From: a virus
Lineage: Duplodnaviria; Caudoviricetes
Virus record (IMG/VR): IMGVR_UViG_3300025909_000005
Direction: 5' to 3' (one strand)
Length of the DNA stretch: 64,000 nucleotides
In this document: positions 3,994 to 33,714 of the stretch, one piece after another
How the letters are laid out: every line of letters starts with the position of its first letter
Numbering within the stretch: the first letter of the stretch is position 1
The notes under the pieces: generated by a model
What the model was told of the DNA's origin: nothing
What the model saw: the letters and a program-made list of their open reading frames with translations, nothing else
The model's database searches: none
Made by a program: the position numbers and the translations under genes

Positions 3994-4584
3994 ATGGCAA
4001 AACAACTTTACGTGTCGTCCGCGGTGCAGGTCGCACTACTCAAGGAAGTCCTCATTCCCGAGATGGCAACGGGCTTCTGGAAGGATCACCGCCCCGCCGA
4101 CCACGCAGCGCAGTGGGCTGACGTCGAGATCCTGGTCTCCGATACCGACACCCTCGGCCCAGTCGACTTCAAGATCCCCCGCCTCTACAACTTCGTCAAC
4201 CCCGACTTCATCAAGCCGAACGAGGCCAAGCTCGTGGCAGCAGCCCAGTCCGCCAAGGCGTCGAGCAACTTCCGCTCCGTCAAGAAGGAACTCATCGAGC
4301 TCTCGCGCATCGTCGGCGGCCGTCTCACCGACAAGAACGCCAACCCGACCAAGGCCAATCGCGGCAACAACAAGGTCGGCACCATCCAGGAGAAGTCGAA
4401 GGACATCGTCAAGGAAGCCGGCAAGACCGTGAAGAAGGTCAAGAAGGACACCGAAGGCGACGTCACCGTCACGAAGACGGCCAACGGCGGCACCGTGATC
4501 CGCCGCGCGGTCACCCGTGCTGTCGAGACCACGGCCTTCTCCAGCCCGTTCGCAATGGGCCAGGCAATCGCCGACGGCCAATAA
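3994..4584 (+). CDS. hypothetical protein with Lys-rich C-terminus
   Basis: RBS GGAG, upstream TGTTATAAT promoter at 3936-3944. Confidence 0.75.
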   Translation: MAKQLYVSSAVQVALLKEVLIPEMATGFWKDHRPADHAAQWADVEILVSDTDTLGPVDFKIPRLYNFVNPDFIKPNEAKLVAAAQSAKASSNFRSVKKELIELSRIVGGRLTDKNANPTKANRGNNKVGTIQEKSKDIVKEAGKTVKKVKKDTEGDVTVTKTANGGTVIRRAVTRAVETTAFSSPFAMGQAIADGQ

Positions 4585-4594
4585 GGAGACCAAC

Positions 4595-4873
4595 ATGGGA
4601 TGCTACATCAACCCGACCAACGGCCAAACCAAGGAGCAGTGGCTCGCTGAGCACAGCGACGGCCCCTCCACGACCGGCAAGGCTGGCATCATCGTCAACG
4701 ACTATTACCCCGTCTGCCTCGTCGACAACGGCGCGTTCACCGCTGCCGCTGTCTGCTACAACGGCAGCGAGCTCGAGACGTTCAAGCGCGACGACGGCCG
4801 CCGCAAGGCCTGGTTCCAGGTCCACAAGGACGACCTCTACACGGTCTCCGATCTGGCCAGGTACGAGCGCTGA
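4595..4873 (+). CDS. hypothetical phage protein
   Basis: RBS TAAGGAG, MGCYINP start. Confidence 0.75.
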   Translation: MGCYINPTNGQTKEQWLAEHSDGPSTTGKAGIIVNDYYPVCLVDNGAFTAAAVCYNGSELETFKRDDGRRKAWFQVHKDDLYTVSDLARYER

Positions 4874-8921: not shown

Positions 8922-8959
8922 GTGGGTCCTACTCTGTGATACAATGGAGTAGGACCCAC
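8922..8959 (+). promoter_or_regulatory. extended -10 promoter (TGTGATACAAT) in the loop of a perfect 13-bp inverted repeat
   Basis: GTGGGTCCTACTC / GAGTAGGACCCAC. Confidence 0.65.
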
Positions 8960-8971
8960 AATGGAGCAAGC

Positions 8972-10279
8972 ATGGCAGGATCACGAATCGCACCAGTACT
9001 CGCAGTGATTGGAGCTGGTTACGGTGACGAAGGCAAGGGCCTCTTCACCGACTACCTTGCCCGCAAGCACTCGAGATTCCAAGGCACGAAGGTTCCTCTC
9101 GTCATGAGAGGAAACGGTGGTGCACAAGCTGGCCACACTGTCGTCGATGGCACGAGGCGTCACGTCTTTGGCCACATCGGCTCAGGCACGATGGCTGGTG
9201 CTCGTACCTACCTCGCTGAGAACTTCATCGTCAACCCCATGGCCTTCGCTCCTGAACTGGAGAAGGTGAAGGCCCTTGGCATGGACCCGACCGTCTATGC
9301 CCACTCCAACTGCCGTGTCACAACGATCTTCGACATGGCGCTGAATTCCCTGGCCGAGCTCTTCCGAGGTCGCGCCCTTCACGGCTCATGCGGCTACGGC
9401 ATCAACGAGACCGTGACTCGCAACGAGGCGGGCTACTACCTCACGATGGCTGACATCCGTGCAGGCACCGCAGTTCTCGCAACCAAGCTCGAGGACATCC
9501 TTCGCGAGTACGTACCGACCCGGCTCTATGCCATCGGCTACCAGGAATGGGACCGCGACTCGGCCACCCCGCAAGTCAGAGCGCAGGCGGACGTCTACCT
9601 CAAGACCGTCATGGTGCAACAGGACGATCGTGCGGCCCACTGCAGCGCCCTCGCATCGAGGATGCAGAAGGACGTTCACTCGATCCACCTCTACGACCCG
9701 AAGTCGTTCACGTGGTCAGGCGAGCCGATCATCTACGAAGGTGCACAAGGCCTGCTGCTCGACGAGTACCACGGTACGTTCCCGCACGTGACCCGCTCCG
9801 TGACAGGCGTCGCCTCCGCTGTTCGTGCTGCCGCTGAAGCTGGACGCACTCAAGTTCAGCCGTACTACATCACGCGCTGCTACACGACCCGCCACGGTGC
9901 GGGTCCCCTGTACAAGGAAGGCGAGATCATCACCGATGGCGTCCGCTCGCTTCCTGATGAAACGAACATGCCGAACCAGCACCAGGGCACGCTGCGCTTC
10001 GCACCGCTGAATCTCGGCCACCTTCGGAACGCAATCGAGCGAGACATGGAACGTGCACGTCACGTCGGCCAGGTCTTCAACATCGAGGTCCTTCAGCCGA
10101 AGCTTGTCGTCACCCACCTCGACCAGCTCGGCCGCAAGGTGCAGTTTGCTGGATGGAGCTACCTTGTCGAGAGTGAAGCTGCTGCGAAAGCAATCGGCAA
10201 CTTCCTCGAGGTGTCCGTCTCGCACGTTTCCTACGGACCTGAAGCAAAGGATGTACGAGAGTTCACCTCTGAGCTATAA
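8972..10279 (+). CDS. purA: adenylosuccinate synthetase-like protein (divergent PurA family)
   Basis: GAGYGDEGKG P-loop, GAQAGHT, EGAQGLLLD, FPHVTRS, TRHGAGP. Confidence 0.85.
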   Translation: MAGSRIAPVLAVIGAGYGDEGKGLFTDYLARKHSRFQGTKVPLVMRGNGGAQAGHTVVDGTRRHVFGHIGSGTMAGARTYLAENFIVNPMAFAPELEKVKALGMDPTVYAHSNCRVTTIFDMALNSLAELFRGRALHGSCGYGINETVTRNEAGYYLTMADIRAGTAVLATKLEDILREYVPTRLYAIGYQEWDRDSATPQVRAQADVYLKTVMVQQDDRAAHCSALASRMQKDVHSIHLYDPKSFTWSGEPIIYEGAQGLLLDEYHGTFPHVTRSVTGVASAVRAAAEAGRTQVQPYYITRCYTTRHGAGPLYKEGEIITDGVRSLPDETNMPNQHQGTLRFAPLNLGHLRNAIERDMERARHVGQVFNIEVLQPKLVVTHLDQLGRKVQFAGWSYLVESEAAAKAIGNFLEVSVSHVSYGPEAKDVREFTSEL

Positions 10280-22391: not shown

Positions 22392-22789
22392 GCGAGAAAA
22401 GCGACGAAGAGCTCAGGGAATCTGTTCGCGCCCGGAGCCTTGGCAACTTCATGCAAAACCTCCAAGCAAGGTTCGACGCAAAGCGCGCGGAACTTCTTGC
22501 AAAGTACGGGCTTGACTTTGAGAAGAGGGTCACCACGTTCGGGATAAATAAGGCTGAGCAAGGAGTAATCGACGACTGGCTGGCTCAAGTCCAGGCAGAA
22601 GTCGTGGCCAAGCAGAGCAAAGAACAGCAGGACCTTGGCGCAGGCCAACCCTACTACGGAGCAGTTGGAGGCGGCGTGAGCTACACGTTTACACCGACTT
22701 CCCTCGGCATGATATTGACTGTCAAGGAAGCCATCACGGGCAAGGAGCTGAACGTCACCGATGCCCTCGACTGGTACTTCTACGACTAA
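22388..22789 (+). CDS. hypothetical protein
   Basis: RBS GGAGG. Confidence 0.65.
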   Translation: MSEKSDEELRESVRARSLGNFMQNLQARFDAKRAELLAKYGLDFEKRVTTFGINKAEQGVIDDWLAQVQAEVVAKQSKEQQDLGAGQPYYGAVGGGVSYTFTPTSLGMILTVKEAITGKELNVTDALDWYFYD

Positions 22790-22808
22790 CAGAAGAACCC
22801 TCACAACA

Positions 22809-23399
22809 ATGAAGAAGCTTTTCCTCTCCCTCGCTCTTGCGCTGACGACTGGTCTGGCCAGCGCCGCCGCAACTGTCGGCATCTCGACTGACCTCGATCG
22901 TGCAACAGGTACGAGCAGCCTCGGCATCAAGACGATGTCCGAGACCAAGGCATCTGTCACCGAGTCCACCCGAGTCGGTGCTGTCGATGCAGGCCTGCTC
23001 GCGCTGCGCTTCAATGACTCAGCTCGCGCTCCAAACGCCAATGGCTTTGAAGTCGGCTACGGCAATGGCATCAGCTTCCAAAGTGTTGGCGTGACAGCTC
23101 GCATCGCGGCTGGTCGTCTGAACTTCGTTGATTCGAACGGCGGTGGTTTCACCGGTCACACGAAGTACTACAGCGTCGAAGCACAAGCCTCTATCCGCCT
23201 GACCGACCACATCGACGCCTTCATTGGTGCTCGTCACCGCAATGGCCTCGGCGACTACTACCCGTCTGCCAACAAGATCCAAGTCGGCCTTGACTACGCA
23301 GTCAACAAGCACTTTGACGTGCGCGTCGGCTACGGTCGTTCCCACCAAGATGGCACCAGCTTCAACGGCGTTGGTGTCGCAATCGGGTACACCTTCTGA
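22809..23399 (+). CDS. outer-membrane beta-barrel protein
   Basis: signal peptide, alternating amphipathic strands, C-terminal VAIGYTF. Confidence 0.75.
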   Translation: MKKLFLSLALALTTGLASAAATVGISTDLDRATGTSSLGIKTMSETKASVTESTRVGAVDAGLLALRFNDSARAPNANGFEVGYGNGISFQSVGVTARIAAGRLNFVDSNGGGFTGHTKYYSVEAQASIRLTDHIDAFIGARHRNGLGDYYPSANKIQVGLDYAVNKHFDVRVGYGRSHQDGTSFNGVGVAIGYTF

Positions 23400-26732: not shown

Positions 26733-26811
26733 AACATGCAACCGATCTGGCAGGCTTATCGGCAAAATATTCGCCTGTCAAACCTTTTTGTTGCACTTAC
26801 ACGAGACCTCG

Positions 26812-27207
26812 ATGATCTGCAAAGGCTGCGATAAGGAAACTTCGAATCTGAAATACTGTGACAATGCTTGTCAGCAAGTAGCTCAGACGAAGGCCAAAGT
26901 TGAAGCGTTCCTCGAAGGAAAATACGTCGGCAAATTCATGCAGTACGGGACCGGTTCCTGGCCGCGTAGAATGCTGATCGAACATTTTGGTTACAAGTGC
27001 AATGCGCCGGGTTGCACTGTCGCTGATACGTGGCTAGGAAAACCAGTCACGTTGGAAGTGAACCACATTGATGGCATTGCGACAAACAATGTCCTAACGA
27101 ATTTAGAATTCCTGTGCCCCACCTGTCACTCGCAGACGCCCAACTTTCGGGCTCTCAACAAGGTTTCAGTTAGAACGCACAGGAAGCCCCGAGCCCCTTT
27201 AGCATAG
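26812..27207 (+). CDS. HNH endonuclease inserted in the tRNA array
   Basis: LEVNHIDGIATNNVLTNLEFLCPTCHSQT; AT-richer than flanking genes; stop inside tRNA-Thr. Confidence 0.85.
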   Translation: MICKGCDKETSNLKYCDNACQQVAQTKAKVEAFLEGKYVGKFMQYGTGSWPRRMLIEHFGYKCNAPGCTVADTWLGKPVTLEVNHIDGIATNNVLTNLEFLCPTCHSQTPNFRALNKVSVRTHRKPRAPLA

Positions 27208-29232: not shown

Positions 29233-29349
29233 GGGGACCTAGCTCAGTAGGTAGAGCACTGGATGAAAACGTTGCTGCATAGGTCGACCTTCAATGCACA
29301 ACGAAGTACGTACCGGCTGTCCGAGGTTCGAGCCCTCGGGTCCCCACCA
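29233..29349 (+). tRNA. tRNA-Phe-derived RNA with about 41-nt hairpin inserted in the anticodon loop
   Basis: perfect acceptor, D and T arms; GAGCA-CTGGA-TGAAAA, then insert CGTTG..CAACG, then ACCGG-CTGTC. Confidence 0.65.
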
Positions 29350-29354
29350 GAATT

Positions 29355-29493
29355 TGACAACCGATAGATTAGGATTATCATCCAAGCAGGTATACGTAGG
29401 TTCGAATCCTACACGGTGCGCAAGTGCCGTTCGACAAGTGGTAAAGTCACCCGCCTCGCCGCAAGGCATTTTCCTGTCGCTCCTTTGTTGTCA
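29355..29493 (+). ncRNA. circularly permuted tRNA-like module
   Basis: order: 3' anticodon strand, T-arm, 3' acceptor strand, GCAA loop, 5' acceptor strand, D-arm, 5' anticodon strand; outer TGACAAC/GTTGTCA stem. Confidence 0.65.
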
Positions 29494-29502
29494 CTTAGAT
29501 TT

Positions 29503-29588
29503 GCGGTTGTGATGGAATCTGGTAGTCTTCCTGTGCTCAGAACGCAGGGCCTTCGGGCGTGTGGGTTCGAATCCCACCTTCCGCACCA
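29503..29588 (+). tRNA. tRNA-Leu(CAG)
   Basis: loop CTCAGAA, long variable arm, CCA. Confidence 0.87.
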
Positions 29589-29593
29589 AACAA

Positions 29594-30001
29594 GTGTCCT
29601 ACTCTAGGATTAGTCATAGGAACGACCGGGAAATCATAACCGGATGTAAGCAAACCTATGGAGTGAGAGAGGAATGAGATTTTCCTCACGATTTAGCTCA
29701 CGTACCATGTGTACGAGGAGTATACGGCATCGTTCTGCGATGCTAGCCTATTTGATTGATGCCCTTAGCGGGGACAGTGTGGTGGCACGGATCGTTTTGC
29801 GGTAGTCACCTATGCATGAAGGTTCTTCCCAAGAGTAAGCAAACGTGAGGGGAGACGTCAATCACCAGTTGTCGTAACTGCAGCCTAAGGGTATGCAGTA
29901 CCGGCGCTTCGCCTGCCAATGGCTCCAGGTAGGGACGCACAGTGTGCCGAATCCGTTCAAGCCGGTTTGAGAATAAGGCTGCGTGCCGAATATAGGACCA
30001 C
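29594..30001 (+). ncRNA. about 410-nt structured RNA between tRNA-Leu and tRNA-Ser, unknown family
   Basis: closing GTGTCCTA/TAGGACCAC; several long-range pairings; no credible ORF. Confidence 0.5.
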
Positions 30002-30005
30002 AATT

Positions 30006-30097
30006 GGAGACATGGCAGAGAGGCCGATTGCGCCGGTTTGCTAAACCGGAGATCCACGAAAGTGGGTCCGTGGGTTCGAATCCCACTGTCTCCTCCA
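30006..30097 (+). tRNA. tRNA-Ser(GCT)
   Basis: loop TTGCTAA, long variable arm. Confidence 0.92.
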
Positions 30098-30189: not shown

Positions 30190-30317
30190 GAATGAACTCC
30201 CCTTCGAGGGAATCGCCGAACGTGGTAGGCGTAGAGCGCATGGCTAAGATCGATGATGCAGTGCGAGGCTAAGTAAAGACAACTCTTTCGGGTTATCAGA
30301 CCAAACCCGACCAACAT

Positions 30318-30409: not shown

Positions 30410-30525
30410 TGAAAGAAGACTGGCGTTCCATGCCCGGCCAAAAACCGTAATGCACATGAAAGTGTGGGGCTGTCAGGGAGAAATATGGTGGAAGTAAATC
30501 TCCTTCATCTTCATGAACAAGATTT

Positions 30526-30885: not shown

Positions 30886-31051
30886 ATTTGAAGCGTTAGC
30901 ATGAGAGAATCCTGCATGCCTAATTGTCGTTTGTCCGAGGTCCGACTGGTTGTCGATGAACGATTACAGCGACGTGGATCGGCCGATCCTAGCTGTTTGT
31001 GACTACCTGGTTGTGGGGAGTAACGGTCCCACCGCTTCAATTCAATTTCAT

Positions 31052-31126
31052 GGGGGCAGCAATGGGTTGCGGTTCTCGCTGGCAGCGAGGATGTCTAGAC
31101 GAGTTCGATTCTCGCGGTCTCCACCA
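31052..31126 (+). tRNA. tRNA-Ala(GGC), atypical
   Basis: G3.U70, loop CTGGCAG, CCA. Confidence 0.7.
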
Positions 31127-31475
31127 GATTTGATCCAAGGCATTAGCCGCCCCTAGGCAAGTCCCAACGAAAGTTGAGGTGGAACGCAGTGTTGAAGCGT
31201 TGAGGATCGCCCGAACAAGTCACGGCTTGGAACTCCGCAGTGCGCCATGGAACTCTGCGTCGATAAGAGAAGGCAGTCGTGCACCAATTTGAGAGCTAGA
31301 TGCGGATACGGGACACCCACGTCGGAAAACCCTTCCACCGCCATGACAGAACGTAGACGAGCTAGTGGATGCAGCATGAAACCTCGTAGGCGTGGTTGCC
31401 GTAGAGGAAGTTCCCTGCTCTAGGCCAACCTACGCAGGCAATCACTGCTCTCAATGAACATGGTATAATGAACTC

Positions 31476-31691
31476 ATGATCCTCTGCAGCTGCGCGAACA
31501 TTCCTGAGAGCGTTGCTCGAGAGAAGCTTAAGACGCAAACGCTGTCTGAGTTCATGATCGAAACGAATTGCGCGATGCAGTGCGGCTCCTGCTGGCAGGA
31601 CCTCCTTGACATCGCAGATGAATACGACAACCGATCGACCAGGGTTATCTCCCATTCGACAACCCCTGGTCAACCTCCTTCGTTGTCATGA
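31476..31691 (+). CDS. bfd: bacterioferritin-associated ferredoxin-like [2Fe-2S] protein
   Basis: MILCSC...CAMQCGSC; own TGGTATAAT promoter. Confidence 0.7.
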   Translation: MILCSCANIPESVAREKLKTQTLSEFMIETNCAMQCGSCWQDLLDIADEYDNRSTRVISHSTTPGQPPSLS

Positions 31692-31695
31692 TTGC

Positions 31696-31772
31696 GCCCT
31701 TGTACGCTAATCGGCAGTGCGGCTCCCCTTAAAATGGAGTGGTTGTGGGCTCGAATCCCACCTTGGGCACCA
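31696..31772 (+). tRNA. tRNA-Leu(TAA), short variable loop
   Basis: loop CTTAAAA, A73, CCA. Confidence 0.78.
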
Positions 31773-31778
31773 ACCCTG

Positions 31779-31926
31779 TTGGCAAATGTTAGAGCAACCG
31801 CTTGATCTTGGATTATCTACTTTTATTGGTTAAAAACCCGGATACGTTCGACTCGTGTCATCCCTTTATGCCGGTGCACGGAAGGGAATTCTCCAAATCG
31901 CCTTTTGTTGCCCTAACATTTGCCAA
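31779..31926 (+). ncRNA. structured spacer RNA with perfect 14-bp closing stem and a T-arm module
   Basis: TTGGCAAATGTTAG/CTAACATTTGCCAA; GATACG-TTCGACT-CGTGTC. Confidence 0.5.
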
Positions 31927-31958
31927 TGATAAATAGTCCTCCAACAGGAGGACGATGA

Positions 31959-32303
31959 ATGTTGCTGAACGAACTGCTCGAGCTAAACGAAATGGCCGAG
32001 CTTGAAGAACTCTTCGAGAAGGAATGGTCTGACGCGGTGACGCACCGCAAGCCAGGCACCTTCGCCCCAAAGGGAACGCACTCCAAGTCCGCTGAAGAGA
32101 TCTTCAAGATCTACAAGCGACACAGGGTCTCTCCACATGGAGACGGCTCTGCAATTCAGATGCTGCAGTTCTTCATCAACCGTGCCGGAAAACGTCTGAA
32201 GCCGGAACGGAAACAGGAACTTGAGAAGGCCATTCGAATGCTTCAGGCGGACAACGCCAAGATGAAGGCAGAGAAGAAGGCCAAGGAAAAGAAGGACGAC
32301 TGA
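31959..32303 (+). CDS. DUF3175-like late protein
   Basis: KEWS...MLQFFINRAGKRL; late promoter. Confidence 0.65.
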   Translation: MLLNELLELNEMAELEELFEKEWSDAVTHRKPGTFAPKGTHSKSAEEIFKIYKRHRVSPHGDGSAIQMLQFFINRAGKRLKPERKQELEKAIRMLQADNAKMKAEKKAKEKKDD

Positions 32304-32307
32304 TTGT

Positions 32308-32381
32308 AGCGGGCGAGTGTGATGGTAGCACGTTGGGCTCATAACCCAGAGGGCCGGTTCGATTCCGAGGCGCCGCAACCA
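32308..32381 (+). tRNA. initiator-like tRNA-Met(CAT), irregular stems
   Basis: three G-C pairs closing loop CTCATAA, 1:72 mismatch. Confidence 0.65.
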
Positions 32382-33485: not shown

Positions 33486-33563
33486 GCCCTTGTACGCTAA
33501 TTGGAAGACGCGCGCGAGCTCAAACCTCGTGGGTTGTCGGTTCGAATCCGACCTTGGGTACCA
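33486..33563 (+). tRNA. tRNA-Leu(CAA), short variable loop
   Basis: loop CTCAAAC, CCA. Confidence 0.8.
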
Positions 33564-33714
33564 CCATATGGCATCTCAGATTGAGACCCCACCCCACACT
33601 GATTTGCGATCTGTAGCTTTTACAGATCGCATGTTGTCGTTCCCGGCCCCGCCAGCCGGTGTCCGGATAAATACCCATACGTGCTACGATGTTGTAGCTC
33701 TTCCTCAAGGAATC

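What the first reader, a model, noticed from the sequence alone, without database searches (positions are those of the whole stretch)
29594..30001. About 410-nt multi-domain orphan RNA between tRNA-Leu and tRNA-Ser
There is no credible ORF. The closing stem is GTGTCCTA/TAGGACCAC. The long-range pairs TGATTGATG/CGTCAATCA and TGCCCTTAG/CTAAGGGTA cross each other, suggesting a pseudoknot or alternative folds. Hairpin GCATCG/CGATGC and a direct repeat GTGCCGAAT (29944, 29983) are also present. Large ncRNAs such as GOLLD and ROOL are known beside phage tRNAs, but I cannot match this one by eye.
Basis: partly seen in the sequence, partly recalled or inferred. Interest (0 to 1): 0.62.

Follow-up and report, generated by a model that had tools for sequence, protein, structure and literature searches.

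The report
New folded RNA among phage tRNAs
The gene-free gap between two tRNA genes of this giant soil phage contains a compactly folded RNA of about 120 bases from an uncatalogued family, seen here only inside phage tRNA clusters, and a second smaller conserved motif; their function is unknown.

Summary
However, the evidence does not support one 410-nt RNA. It supports two small conserved modules inside lineage-specific sequence.

**Module M1 (29748-29868).** It belongs to a ~120-nt RNA family that I found in 25 IMG/VR phage contigs, almost always on the tRNA strand inside tRNA arrays and often within 10 nt of a tRNA.
- The fold has four helices plus a 7-bp loop-loop pseudoknot.
- Covariation is very strong: 96% of cells are paired against 61% in shuffles, and 30 of 33 pairs show double changes.
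- Rfam 15 has no model for it.
- None of the 10 pattern hits in 185,000 prokaryote genomes is real.
- It is absent from five cultured large phages.

**Module M2 (29695-29746).** This is a second conserved motif of two hairpins around an invariant AGGAGTAT. It recurs in nine phage contigs.

**Function and context.** Function is unknown. The RNAs are most likely cut out of the tRNA precursor and act as stable RNAs. Expression could not be tested. This scan has reported other, different uncatalogued RNAs in phage tRNA arrays.

The parts
29503..29588 (+). tRNA-Leu(CAG), the upstream boundary of the gap
   Evidence: ARAGORN; Rfam tRNA, 32.6 bits
29589..30005 (+). The whole 417-nt ORF-free gap. It lies inside the tRNA transcription unit and has no promoter-like or terminator-like site of its own on the + strand.
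29594..29601 (+). Predicted only.
   Evidence: With M1 constrained, pair probabilities are 0.43-0.96. The stem is invariant in the strain variants, and no homologue of the flank was found.
29646..29655 (+). GTAAGCAAAC, a 10-nt copy of the loop-5 pseudoknot strand of M1 (29835-29844). It may be a competitor or a duplication remnant. Unexplained.
   Evidence: read from the sequence
29695..29746 (+). Motif M2: AGCTCA, hairpin 1 (29701-29705 with 29711-29715, loop CATGT), the invariant AGGAGTAT (29716-29723), then hairpin 2 (29727-29732 with 29738-29743).
   Evidence: The pattern scan found 9 IMG/VR contigs. The sequences are shown. In alignment A3, hairpin 1 is 100% paired and 3 of 5 pairs show changes on both sides. 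Hairpin 2 carries the swap 29727 G>A with 29743 C>T in strains L131 and L110.
29748..29868 (+). Module M1, a member of an uncatalogued phage RNA family of about 120 nt.
   Evidence: Covariance models (CMs): R1 scores 142 bits, E = 3e-29; R2 scores 106 bits, E = 8e-26. Covariation is shown.
29753..29761 (+). M1 helix P1, 5' strand.
   Evidence: All 7 modelled pairs covary across 18 sequences, with 95.9% of cells paired. The strain change 29864 A>G keeps the pair as U-G.
29762..29773 (+). M1 hairpin P2 (29762-29765 with 29770-29773). Its loop, TTAGCG/TAGC, is conserved in most members.
   Evidence: All 4 pairs covary, with 98.6% of cells paired. The loop sequences are listed.
29781..29810 (+). 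M1 hairpin P3 (29781-29788 with 29802-29810). Its loop holds the conserved GGAT and CGG, and the pseudoknot strand 29793-29800.
   Evidence: All 8 pairs covary. The strain change 29785 G>A turns a G-U pair into A-U.
29824..29855 (+). M1 hairpin P5 (29824-29830 with 29849-29855). Its loop is AAGAGTAAG, six variable bases, then TGA. The stretch 29839-29845 pairs with 29793-29800 as a loop-loop pseudoknot.
   Evidence: In the pseudoknot helix, 6 of 7 pairs covary and 97.6% of cells are paired, although the helix was not part of the CM that made the alignment. The strain change 29852 G>A turns a U-G pair into U-A.
29878..29898 (+). Lineage-specific and unverified.
   Evidence: Read from the sequence. 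It is absent from homologues, which end at P1. No homologue of the 3' flank was found.
29993..30001 (+). 3' strand of the predicted closing stem (TAGGACCAC).
30006..30097 (+). tRNA-Ser(GCU), the downstream boundary. RNase P cleavage at its 5' end would define the 3' end of the released gap RNA (inference).

Best explanation
The gap is a mosaic of small non-coding RNA modules embedded in the phage's tRNA operon. It is not one large RNA of a single family.

**Core module M1 (29748-29868).** M1 is a compact RNA of about 120 nt from a family seen here only in phages and not catalogued in Rfam.
- A 7-9-bp closing helix (P1) encloses three hairpins (P2, P3, P5).
- The large loops of P3 and P5 pair with each other over 7 bp.
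- Conserved unpaired bases are clustered at the ends of that contact (GGAT...CGG; CCAAGAGTAAG...TGAGG) and in the P2 loop (TTAGCG).

**Motif M2 (29695-29746).** A second conserved motif lies just upstream: hairpin, AGGAGTAT, hairpin.

**Remainder.** The other 106 nt on the 5' side and 137 nt on the 3' side are specific to this phage lineage. They may or may not close the whole stretch with an 8-bp stem.

**Inferred mechanism.**
- The gap is transcribed with the flanking tRNAs.
- It is freed by the enzymes that trim them: RNase P at the 5' end of tRNA-Ser, and 3'-end trimming after tRNA-Leu.
- M1 then persists as a stable folded RNA whose conserved loops bind a constant partner, either a protein or an RNA of the translation or tRNA-handling machinery.

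**Shown versus inferred.** Shown: the fold, the family, its tRNA-array context, and its absence from what I searched of prokaryote genomes. Inferred: transcription, processing, action in trans, and the nature of the partner.
For: **Non-coding and unmatched.** No ORF is credible under any code. No Rfam family matches, even at E<=10.

**M1 homologues.**
- nhmmer matched gap positions 156-276 to a 132-nt tRNA-Tyr/tRNA-Thr spacer of the distant jumbo phage G014, E = 1.1e-6.
- A 17-base pattern found 25 IMG/VR loci. All match the covariance models (CMs) over their full length: 23 with R1 at E 1e-20 to 1e-4, and the last two with R2.

**M1 covariation (18 sequences).**
- 96.4% of cells are paired, against 61.4% in shuffles and 38-48% in slid controls.
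- 30 of 33 pairs show changes on both sides. None of 500 shuffles reached the observed value on any of the five measures.
- The loop-loop helix covaries in 6 of 7 pairs although it was not in the CM that made the alignment.
- The three strain substitutions inside M1 all keep their pairs.

**M1 context.** Where tRNAs were called in the locus, M1 is on the same strand as its nearest tRNAs. In 15 of 25 loci it is followed by a tRNA within 5-10 nt, and in 8 loci a tRNA ends 0-4 nt upstream or overlaps by 2 nt.

**Seen only in phages so far.** The 10 pattern hits in 596 Gb of prokaryote genomes all fail the CM and lie near no tRNA.

**M2.** It occurs in 9 contigs. Hairpin 1 is 100% paired with four distinct stems. 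Hairpin 2 carries a G-C to A-U swap between strains.

**No signals of its own.** The gap has no promoter-like or terminator-like site on the + strand. A strong promoter-like site lies upstream at 29354-29381, and a terminator-like hairpin at 33605-33631 follows the last called tRNA of the cluster, tRNA-Leu(CAA) at 33486-33563.
Against: - Expression and processing are untested.
- The family alignment was seeded with a pattern taken from loop 5, so the invariance of CCAAGAGTAAG...TGAGGG is partly by selection.
- In this phage, unlike most members, M1 is not next to tRNAs. It sits 159 and 137 nt away from them, so the released fragment may differ from that of other phages.
- The flanks are as conserved between strains (2.2% divergence) as the next spacer, 30190-30317 (2.3%). 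This neither supports nor excludes function.
- The closing stem has high predicted probability, which fits a single 417-nt RNA equally well.
- No partner is known, and no protein gene is conserved beside M1 across phages.
- G002, a 98%-complete relative, lacks M1, so M1 is dispensable for this kind of phage.
Confidence: 0.6

Rival explanations
1. This is the first reader's reading: the whole gap is one ~410-nt multi-domain RNA closed by GTGTCCTA/TAGGACCAC, and M1 and M2 are domains of it. It would be a lineage-specific enlargement in the manner of GOLLD and ROOL, which are modular and lie near phage tRNAs.
For: - With M1 constrained, the closing stem has predicted pair probabilities of 0.43-0.96.
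- The gap has no internal promoter or terminator, so processing of the two flanking tRNAs should release one fragment.
- In L142 and L158, M1 lies 100-125 nt 3' of a GOLLD match, so M1 can sit beside a large RNA.
- The 3' flank has a hairpin loop complementary to P2 and its loop, and the 5' flank carries a copy of the loop-5 pseudoknot strand.
Against: - No homologue of either flank was found anywhere.
- The closing stem and the crossing helix have no covariation data.
- G014 and most other members carry M1 alone between tRNAs.
- The crossing helix would unfold the covarying hairpin P2.
- Complementary 9-mers of this quality are expected by chance in 417 nt (my estimate).
Confidence: 0.2
2. 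M1 and M2 act in cis on the tRNA precursor rather than as free RNAs. M2 could be a transcription-elongation (antitermination) signal for the long untranslated operon. M1 could be a tRNA-shaped spacer that organises folding or RNase P and 3'-end cleavage of neighbouring tRNAs.
For: - M1 abuts tRNAs in most phages, and its helix order (closing stem, short hairpin, long hairpin, variable stretch, hairpin next to the 3' strand) follows that of a cloverleaf.
- M2 occurs both in tRNA arrays and between a transcription regulator and the terminase gene in a small phage. There it is followed by terminator-like hairpins.
- Long untranslated transcripts need protection from Rho-dependent termination (general knowledge).
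Against: - The tRNAs flanking M1 differ from phage to phage.
- Many arrays, and the relative G002, work without M1.
- The invariant loop bases and the pseudoknot are more elaborate than a spacer would need.
- In this phage M1 is not adjacent to a tRNA.
Confidence: 0.15
3. The gap is decayed sequence without function: remnants of tRNA genes or of a homing-endonuclease gene, or plain spacer.
For: - The fold energy of the whole gap is not unusual.
- Another gap of similar size in the array (26733-27192) holds a weak HNH-like ORF.
- The flanks have no homologues.
Against: - This is excluded for M1 and M2 by their conservation in unrelated phages and by covariation.
- No tRNA-model match appears in the gap even at E<=10.
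- No frame resembles a protein.
- It remains possible only for 29589-29694 and 29869-30005.
Confidence: 0.04

Closest known systems
Phage T4 stable RNAs rnaC and rnaD ('species 1 and 2' RNAs) of the T4 tRNA cluster
   Same: They are small (139 and 119 nt) non-coding RNAs encoded directly beside tRNA genes on the same strand (annotation of NC_000866). That their function is still unknown after decades is from my own knowledge. The size of rnaD matches M1.
   Different: No sequence or structure match: CM R1 with filters off finds nothing on the T4 locus, and R2 finds nothing in the whole T4 genome. rnaC ends in a tRNA-like T arm, which M1 lacks.
GOLLD RNA (Rfam RF02032) and ROOL RNA (Rfam RF03087)
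   Same: They are structured RNAs of unknown function in phages and prophages, often near tRNA islands and rich in kissing loops (bioRxiv 10.1101/2024.12.08.627333). M1 lies 100-125 nt 3' of a GOLLD match in two phages.
   Different: GOLLD often exceeds 800 nt and has a conserved 3' domain. The gap gives no match to either model even at E<=10. M1 is 120 nt and usually occurs without GOLLD: 11 of the 13 family loci scanned have none.
tRNA (Rfam RF00005) and tRNA-like modules such as YrlA-type Y RNAs (RF02553)
   Same: M1 sits in a tRNA array in the place of a tRNA gene. It has a 7-bp terminal helix, a 2-nt linker, a 4-bp first hairpin, and a last hairpin next to the 3' strand of the terminal helix. 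This is a cloverleaf-like order with a loop-loop tertiary contact.
   Different: M1 has no D-loop or T-loop consensus and no anticodon loop. It is 120 nt long, and the tertiary contact joins the second and last hairpin loops. ARAGORN and the Rfam tRNA and YrlA models do not match it. The likeness is topological only.
STnc100 (Rfam RF02076), a prophage sRNA. An earlier agent of this scan described it as having a tRNA-shaped junction (its note, not checked here).
   Same: It is phage-borne. The earlier notes (not checked here) describe a unit of similar size that can form arrays.
   Different: Tested here on phage 933W: RF02076 matches 22777-22982 at 207.7 bits, whereas M1's model R2 scores only noise there. 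The sequences share nothing visible. RF02076 does not match the gap.

Membership tests
GOLLD RNA (RF02032) | Match to the Rfam covariance model at or above 150 bits | tested here: not met
   No GOLLD match in the gap at the gathering score or at E<=10. The same library finds GOLLD at 191 bits in L142 and L158.
GOLLD RNA (RF02032) | Large size (often over 800 nt) with a universally conserved 3' domain | tested here: not met
   The gap is 417 nt, and its only conserved units are 121 and about 52 nt.
GOLLD RNA (RF02032) | Location in a phage or prophage near tRNA genes | tested here: met
   The gap lies between two tRNAs of a phage array.
ROOL RNA (RF03087) | Match to the Rfam covariance model | tested here: not met
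   No match at E<=10.
tRNA (RF00005) | Cloverleaf with D-loop and T-loop consensus and a 7-nt anticodon loop, detected by ARAGORN or the Rfam model | tested here: not met
   No call in the gap by ARAGORN or by RF00005 at E<=10. Only the order of helices resembles a cloverleaf.
T4 rnaC/rnaD stable RNAs | Sequence or structure similarity to the T4 RNAs | tested here: not met
   R1 (filters off) on the T4 tRNA locus gives a best E of 0.77, and that hit is not at rnaC or rnaD. R2 finds nothing in the whole T4 genome.
T4 rnaC/rnaD stable RNAs | Non-coding gene inside the tRNA cluster on the tRNA strand | tested here: met
STnc100 (RF02076) | Match to the Rfam model, or cross-match of M1's model to a true STnc100 | tested here: not met
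M1 family (defined here; no name in Rfam 15) | Helices P1, P2, P3 and P5 in this order, with full-length CM matches | tested here: met
   In the window, R1 scores 142 bits and R2 scores 106 bits. All 26 modelled pairs are standard pairs in the window sequence.
M1 family (defined here; no name in Rfam 15) | 7-bp loop-loop pseudoknot between the P3 and P5 loops | tested here: met
   Window 29793-29797 with 29841-29845, and 29799-29800 with 29839-29840, are all Watson-Crick pairs. In the family, 6 of 7 pairs covary.
M1 family (defined here; no name in Rfam 15) | Placement directly between tRNA genes | tested here: not met
   In the window M1 is 159 nt from tRNA-Leu and 137 nt from tRNA-Ser. Most members lie within 10 nt of a tRNA. 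This is a context feature, not a structural one.
M1 family (defined here; no name in Rfam 15) | Transcribed and accumulating as a discrete RNA | not testable with these tools

The most novel reading that the evidence does not exclude
M1 could be a trans-acting tRNA-binding RNA that works like a free-standing T-box Stem I.
- The conserved P2 loop presents UUAGC(G), which contains the serine codon AGC.
- That loop could pair with up to six bases of the anticodon loop of tRNA-Ser(GCU), the gene that follows the gap in this phage.
- The P3-P5 loop-loop platform, with its invariant purine-rich bases, would dock on the tRNA elbow.
- The phage could use this to sequester, protect or sense a particular tRNA.

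A second, equally unexcluded reading is that M1 is a small ribozyme. Nothing here tests either. The complementarity was read from the sequence, and tRNA-Ser(GCU) lies in the fetched locus for only 4 of the 16 other members checked.
Probability: 0.06. Interest if true: 0.85.

Novelty: new variant of a known kind. Interest (0 to 1): 0.56.

Why it matters
Large phages carry tRNA arrays whose purpose is still debated. A few unexplained RNAs live among those tRNAs: T4 rnaC and rnaD, GOLLD and ROOL.

M1 adds a small, very well-defined member to that set.
- It is a 120-nt RNA with four covarying helices, a covarying loop-loop contact and invariant unpaired bases.
- It is found in phages of widely different size and base composition. 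Module GC ranges from 35 to 53%, and contigs range from about 5 kb to 374 kb.
- It was not found in prokaryote genomes or in the five cultured large phages tested.

Such conservation of unpaired bases usually marks a binding pocket or an active site. The RNA is therefore a good target for structure determination, for partner pull-downs, and for a new Rfam entry that would improve annotation of the 'empty' gaps in phage tRNA arrays.

The result also shows that these gaps can be mosaics of independent RNA cassettes. That changes how they should be searched: module by module, not as one unit.

Tried and rejected
**Protein coding.** Six frames under four stop-codon regimes give nothing contained in the gap that looks like a protein.

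**Known RNA families.**
- Rfam at the gathering score and at E<=5 or E<=10 on the window, on G014's copy and on other members gives no family at M1 or M2.
- STnc100 was a lead from earlier notes. It was tested on phage 933W and is unrelated.
- T4 rnaC and rnaD are unrelated.

**Paralogues and close relatives.**
- No paralogue exists in the window.
- blastn against 50,697 cultured-phage records finds only the flanking tRNAs with the window as query. Two family members as queries find nothing, even at E<=10.
- R2 on XacN1, Atu_ph07, Synechococcus phage B23, RSL1 and T4 finds nothing.
- The relatives G001, G002, G003, G004 and G015 have no M1.

**Flanks.** nhmmer with the two flanks against all loci held at that point (about 1 Mb) finds nothing significant. 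The E = 14 hit in G002 is what led to M2.

**Linked protein.** An all-against-all comparison of ORFs from 19 family loci finds no cluster shared by more than 3 loci.

**Neighbouring proteins as anchors.**
- The 236-aa protein upstream of the array has no relatives beyond this phage species.
- The hemerythrin gene led to G014.

**Fold-energy z-score.** It is uninformative: the stretch an earlier agent read as RNase P RNA scores the same as the gap.

**Link between the P2 loop and tRNA-Ser(GCU).** It was looked for in the flanks of other members. The data are too sparse to judge.

Full report
**Setting.** The window comes from a large uncultured phage. Its genes include a phage-type helicase, NAD-salvage enzymes, a tRNA nucleotidyltransferase and a PurZ-like enzyme. 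Between about 25.5 and 33.6 kb, and at 48.8 kb, it carries about 27 tRNA genes, all on the + strand. It also carries a tmRNA and two CUA-anticodon tRNAs. The finding is the 417-nt gap 29589-30005, between tRNA-Leu(CAG) and tRNA-Ser(GCU).

**Checking the observation.**
- The gap holds no credible ORF under the standard code or with TAG, TGA or TAA read through.
- It has no promoter-like or terminator-like site on the + strand.
- A near-consensus promoter-like site lies upstream at 29354-29381. A terminator-like hairpin at 33605-33631 follows the last called tRNA of the cluster, tRNA-Leu(CAA) at 33486-33563.
- Rfam gives nothing in the gap at the gathering score, at E<=5 over the array, or at E<=10 on the gap alone. 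The exception is a meaningless 17.5-bit Xist match.
- The fold energy is not unusual (z = -0.77). This is uninformative, because the stretch that an earlier agent read as this phage's RNase P RNA gives the same z.
- The + strand folds better than the - strand: -134 against -113 kcal/mol.

**Strain variants.** Contigs of the same phage species were recovered: L096, L128 and L131 at 98.5-99.6% identity, and L110 at about 94%.
- In L110 the gap differs at 9 positions (2.2%).
- The spacer 30410-30525 is replaced outright in L110, and 31051-32260 differs by 5.7%.
- The neighbouring spacer 30190-30317 is as conserved as the gap (2.3%), so conservation alone says little.
- The substitutions are suggestive. 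29727 G>A with 29743 C>T converts a G-C pair of the GCATCG/CGATGC hairpin into A-U, and 29744 T>C turns G-U into G-C.
- Three further changes, at 29785, 29852 and 29864, each keep a pair.

**The core is a member of a family.** Close relatives are scarce.
- The protein upstream of the array has no homologue outside this species.
- The nearest phages by helicase (56-60% identity) show no DNA match to the gap.
- A hemerythrin gene downstream led to a syntenic 350-kb phage contig, G014.
- There, nhmmer matched gap positions 156-276 to the 132-nt spacer between tRNA-Tyr and tRNA-Thr, E = 1.1e-6.
- Three sequences already gave five pairs with compensatory changes.
- A covariance model (R1) and a 17-base pattern from one loop then retrieved 25 IMG/VR loci.
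- 23 of them match R1 end to end. The remaining two match the improved model R2.

**The fold.** On 18 distinct sequences, RNAalifold predicts 30 pairs, of which 24 show compensatory changes.
- Reading the alignment, I saw that six variable bases in the P3 loop are always complementary to six variable bases in the P5 loop.
- Counting my full structure gave the following:
  - 96.4% of cells form standard pairs, against 61.4% in shuffles and 38-48% when partners are slid.
  - 30 of 33 pairs have changes on both sides.
  - The covariation score is 0.92 against 0.24 in shuffles, and no shuffle reached the observed value on any of the five measures.
- The loop-loop helix was not in the model that built the alignment. 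It is still 97.6% paired, and 6 of its 7 pairs covary.
- In the window the parts are:
  - P1: 29753-29761 with 29856-29864
  - P2: 29762-29765 with 29770-29773
  - P3: 29781-29788 with 29802-29810
  - P5: 29824-29830 with 29849-29855
  - pseudoknot: 29793-29800 with 29839-29845
- Conserved unpaired bases are TTAGCG in the P2 loop, GGAT and CGG around the pseudoknot strand in loop 3, and AAGAGTAAG and TGA around it in loop 5. The loop-5 bases were part of my search pattern, so their invariance is partly by selection. The others were not.

**Context and distribution.**
- Where tRNAs were called in the locus, M1 is on the same strand as its nearest tRNAs. In 15 of 25 loci it is followed by a tRNA within 5-10 nt, and in 8 loci a tRNA ends 0-4 nt upstream or overlaps by 2 nt. 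The identity of the flanking tRNAs varies.
- The contigs range from about 5 to 374 kb, and module GC from 35 to 53%.
- The same pattern hit 10 places in one genome each of 185,579 prokaryote species. None matches the model and none is near a tRNA.
- No cultured phage gave a blastn hit.
- R2 finds nothing in T4, XacN1, Atu_ph07, Synechococcus phage B23 or RSL1.
- The relative G002, 98% complete, lacks M1.
- In two phages M1 lies 100-125 nt 3' of a full GOLLD match. Eleven of the 13 family loci scanned have no GOLLD, and M1's model does not match GOLLD itself.
- Rfam 15 has no model for M1.
- M1 is not STnc100, a lead from earlier notes of this scan, and not T4 rnaC or rnaD.
- No protein gene is conserved next to it.
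- A 2023 survey predicted about 10,000 structured RNAs in IMG/VR (PMC10690425). M1 may be among them, but its supplementary files are not held, so I could not check.

**A second motif.** A weak nhmmer hit in G002 (E = 0.18) had a hairpin whose five pairs were all changed, while the loop and flanks were identical.
- The derived pattern, AGCTCA-N5-CATGT-N5-AGGAGTAT, found 9 IMG/VR contigs. By my estimate about 0.4 are expected by chance.
- In all of them the two N5 stretches are complementary, with four distinct stems. Pairing is 100%, and 3 of 5 pairs have changes on both sides.
- A second hairpin follows the invariant AGGAGTAT. In the window this is the GCATCG/CGATGC hairpin that carries the strain-level swap.
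- This motif, M2, is window 29695-29746. It lies in tRNA arrays in G002, L181 and L182.
- In small phages it lies next to integrase genes, or between a transcription regulator and the terminase gene, and is followed by terminator-like hairpins.
- Rfam has no match for it.

**What remains.** Stretches 29589-29694 and 29869-30005 have no homologue in anything I held.
It cannot be tested by covariation.
Its partner lies in a hairpin loop (29883-29893) that other members do not have. It is therefore at best a lineage-specific or alternative contact.
- The 5' flank also carries a 10-nt copy (29646-29655) of the loop-5 pseudoknot strand. I cannot explain this.

**Mechanism.**
- Shown: two conserved structured RNA modules, their folds and their genomic habit.
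- Inferred: the gap is transcribed within the tRNA operon and released when RNase P cuts at tRNA-Ser and the 3' end of tRNA-Leu is trimmed. M1 then persists as a stable, compact RNA whose invariant loops bind a constant partner.
- The cloverleaf-like order of helices (7-bp closing stem, 2-nt linker, 4-bp first hairpin, last hairpin abutting the 3' strand) and its place in the array suggest descent from, or mimicry of, a tRNA. That is a topological likeness only.
- Rivals are a single 410-nt RNA, cis-acting roles in processing or elongation, and, for the flanks only, functionless spacer.

**Verdict.** The interesting object is smaller and better defined than proposed: an uncatalogued RNA family of phage tRNA arrays, found here only in phages, with a covariation-proven pseudoknotted fold. 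Function and expression remain open. This scan has reported other, different uncatalogued RNAs in phage tRNA arrays on other DNA, so the kind is no longer surprising, although this family appears to be new.

Noticed in passing
window 29354-29381: A near-consensus sigma-70-type promoter-like site (TTGACA, 16 nt, TATCAT; 11 of 12) lies inside the tRNA array, just before the Y-RNA-like element and tRNA-Leu(CAG). It may start a sub-operon that includes the gap.
   Followed up: no
window 30410-30525 versus L110:1183-1377: The spacer between tRNA-Ser(GGA) and tRNA-Pro(CGG) is replaced by unrelated sequence in the ~94% strain, while the tRNAs and the studied gap stay nearly identical. Spacers in this array evolve at very different rates.
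   Followed up: partly
window 26788-27207: The 460-nt gap between tRNA-Cys and tRNA-Thr holds a 139-aa ORF with weak HNH-endonuclease matches (below the Pfam cut-offs). It may be a homing endonuclease inside the array.
   Followed up: no
window 31959-32303: A 114-aa DUF3175 protein gene sits inside the tRNA array. The same protein is found on about 10 metagenome contigs of this phage.
   Followed up: partly
L142:6103-6564(-) and L158:4579-5040(-): Two phages carry a full GOLLD RNA with a tRNA nested in its linker. An M1 copy follows 100-125 nt downstream, and tRNA-Cys follows 7-8 nt after that.
   Followed up: partly
L093:1085-1380(-) (G002) and L181: A sequence closely resembling the stretch of this phage that an earlier agent read as RNase P RNA lies inside the tRNA array of relative G002 and on contig L181. 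Motif M2 follows 8 nt after it in L181 and about 155 nt after it in G002.
   Followed up: no
window 32309-32381 versus L132:3827-3899: The weak tRNA call at 32312-32375 (30 bits, not called by ARAGORN) is 93% identical to a stretch in the distant phage G014. That is far more conserved than the ordinary tRNAs (72-86%).
   Followed up: no
window 29312-29490 versus L132:1242-1415 and 4515-4641: The Y-RNA-like element just upstream of the gap has two diverged copies (73-75% identity) in G014's array.
   Followed up: no
window 8936-10279: A 447-aa protein matches the PHROG annotated as the phage adenylosuccinate-synthetase-like enzyme (PurZ type, E = 3.6e-57). This hints that the phage may replace adenine with 2-aminoadenine in its DNA.
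   Followed up: no
L174:10402-10430, L180:11552-11580, L177:5601-5629: Outside tRNA arrays, motif M2 lies next to integrase genes (L174, L180), or between a transcription-regulator gene and the terminase gene (L177). It is followed by terminator-like hairpins in L174, L175 and L177-L179.
   Followed up: partly
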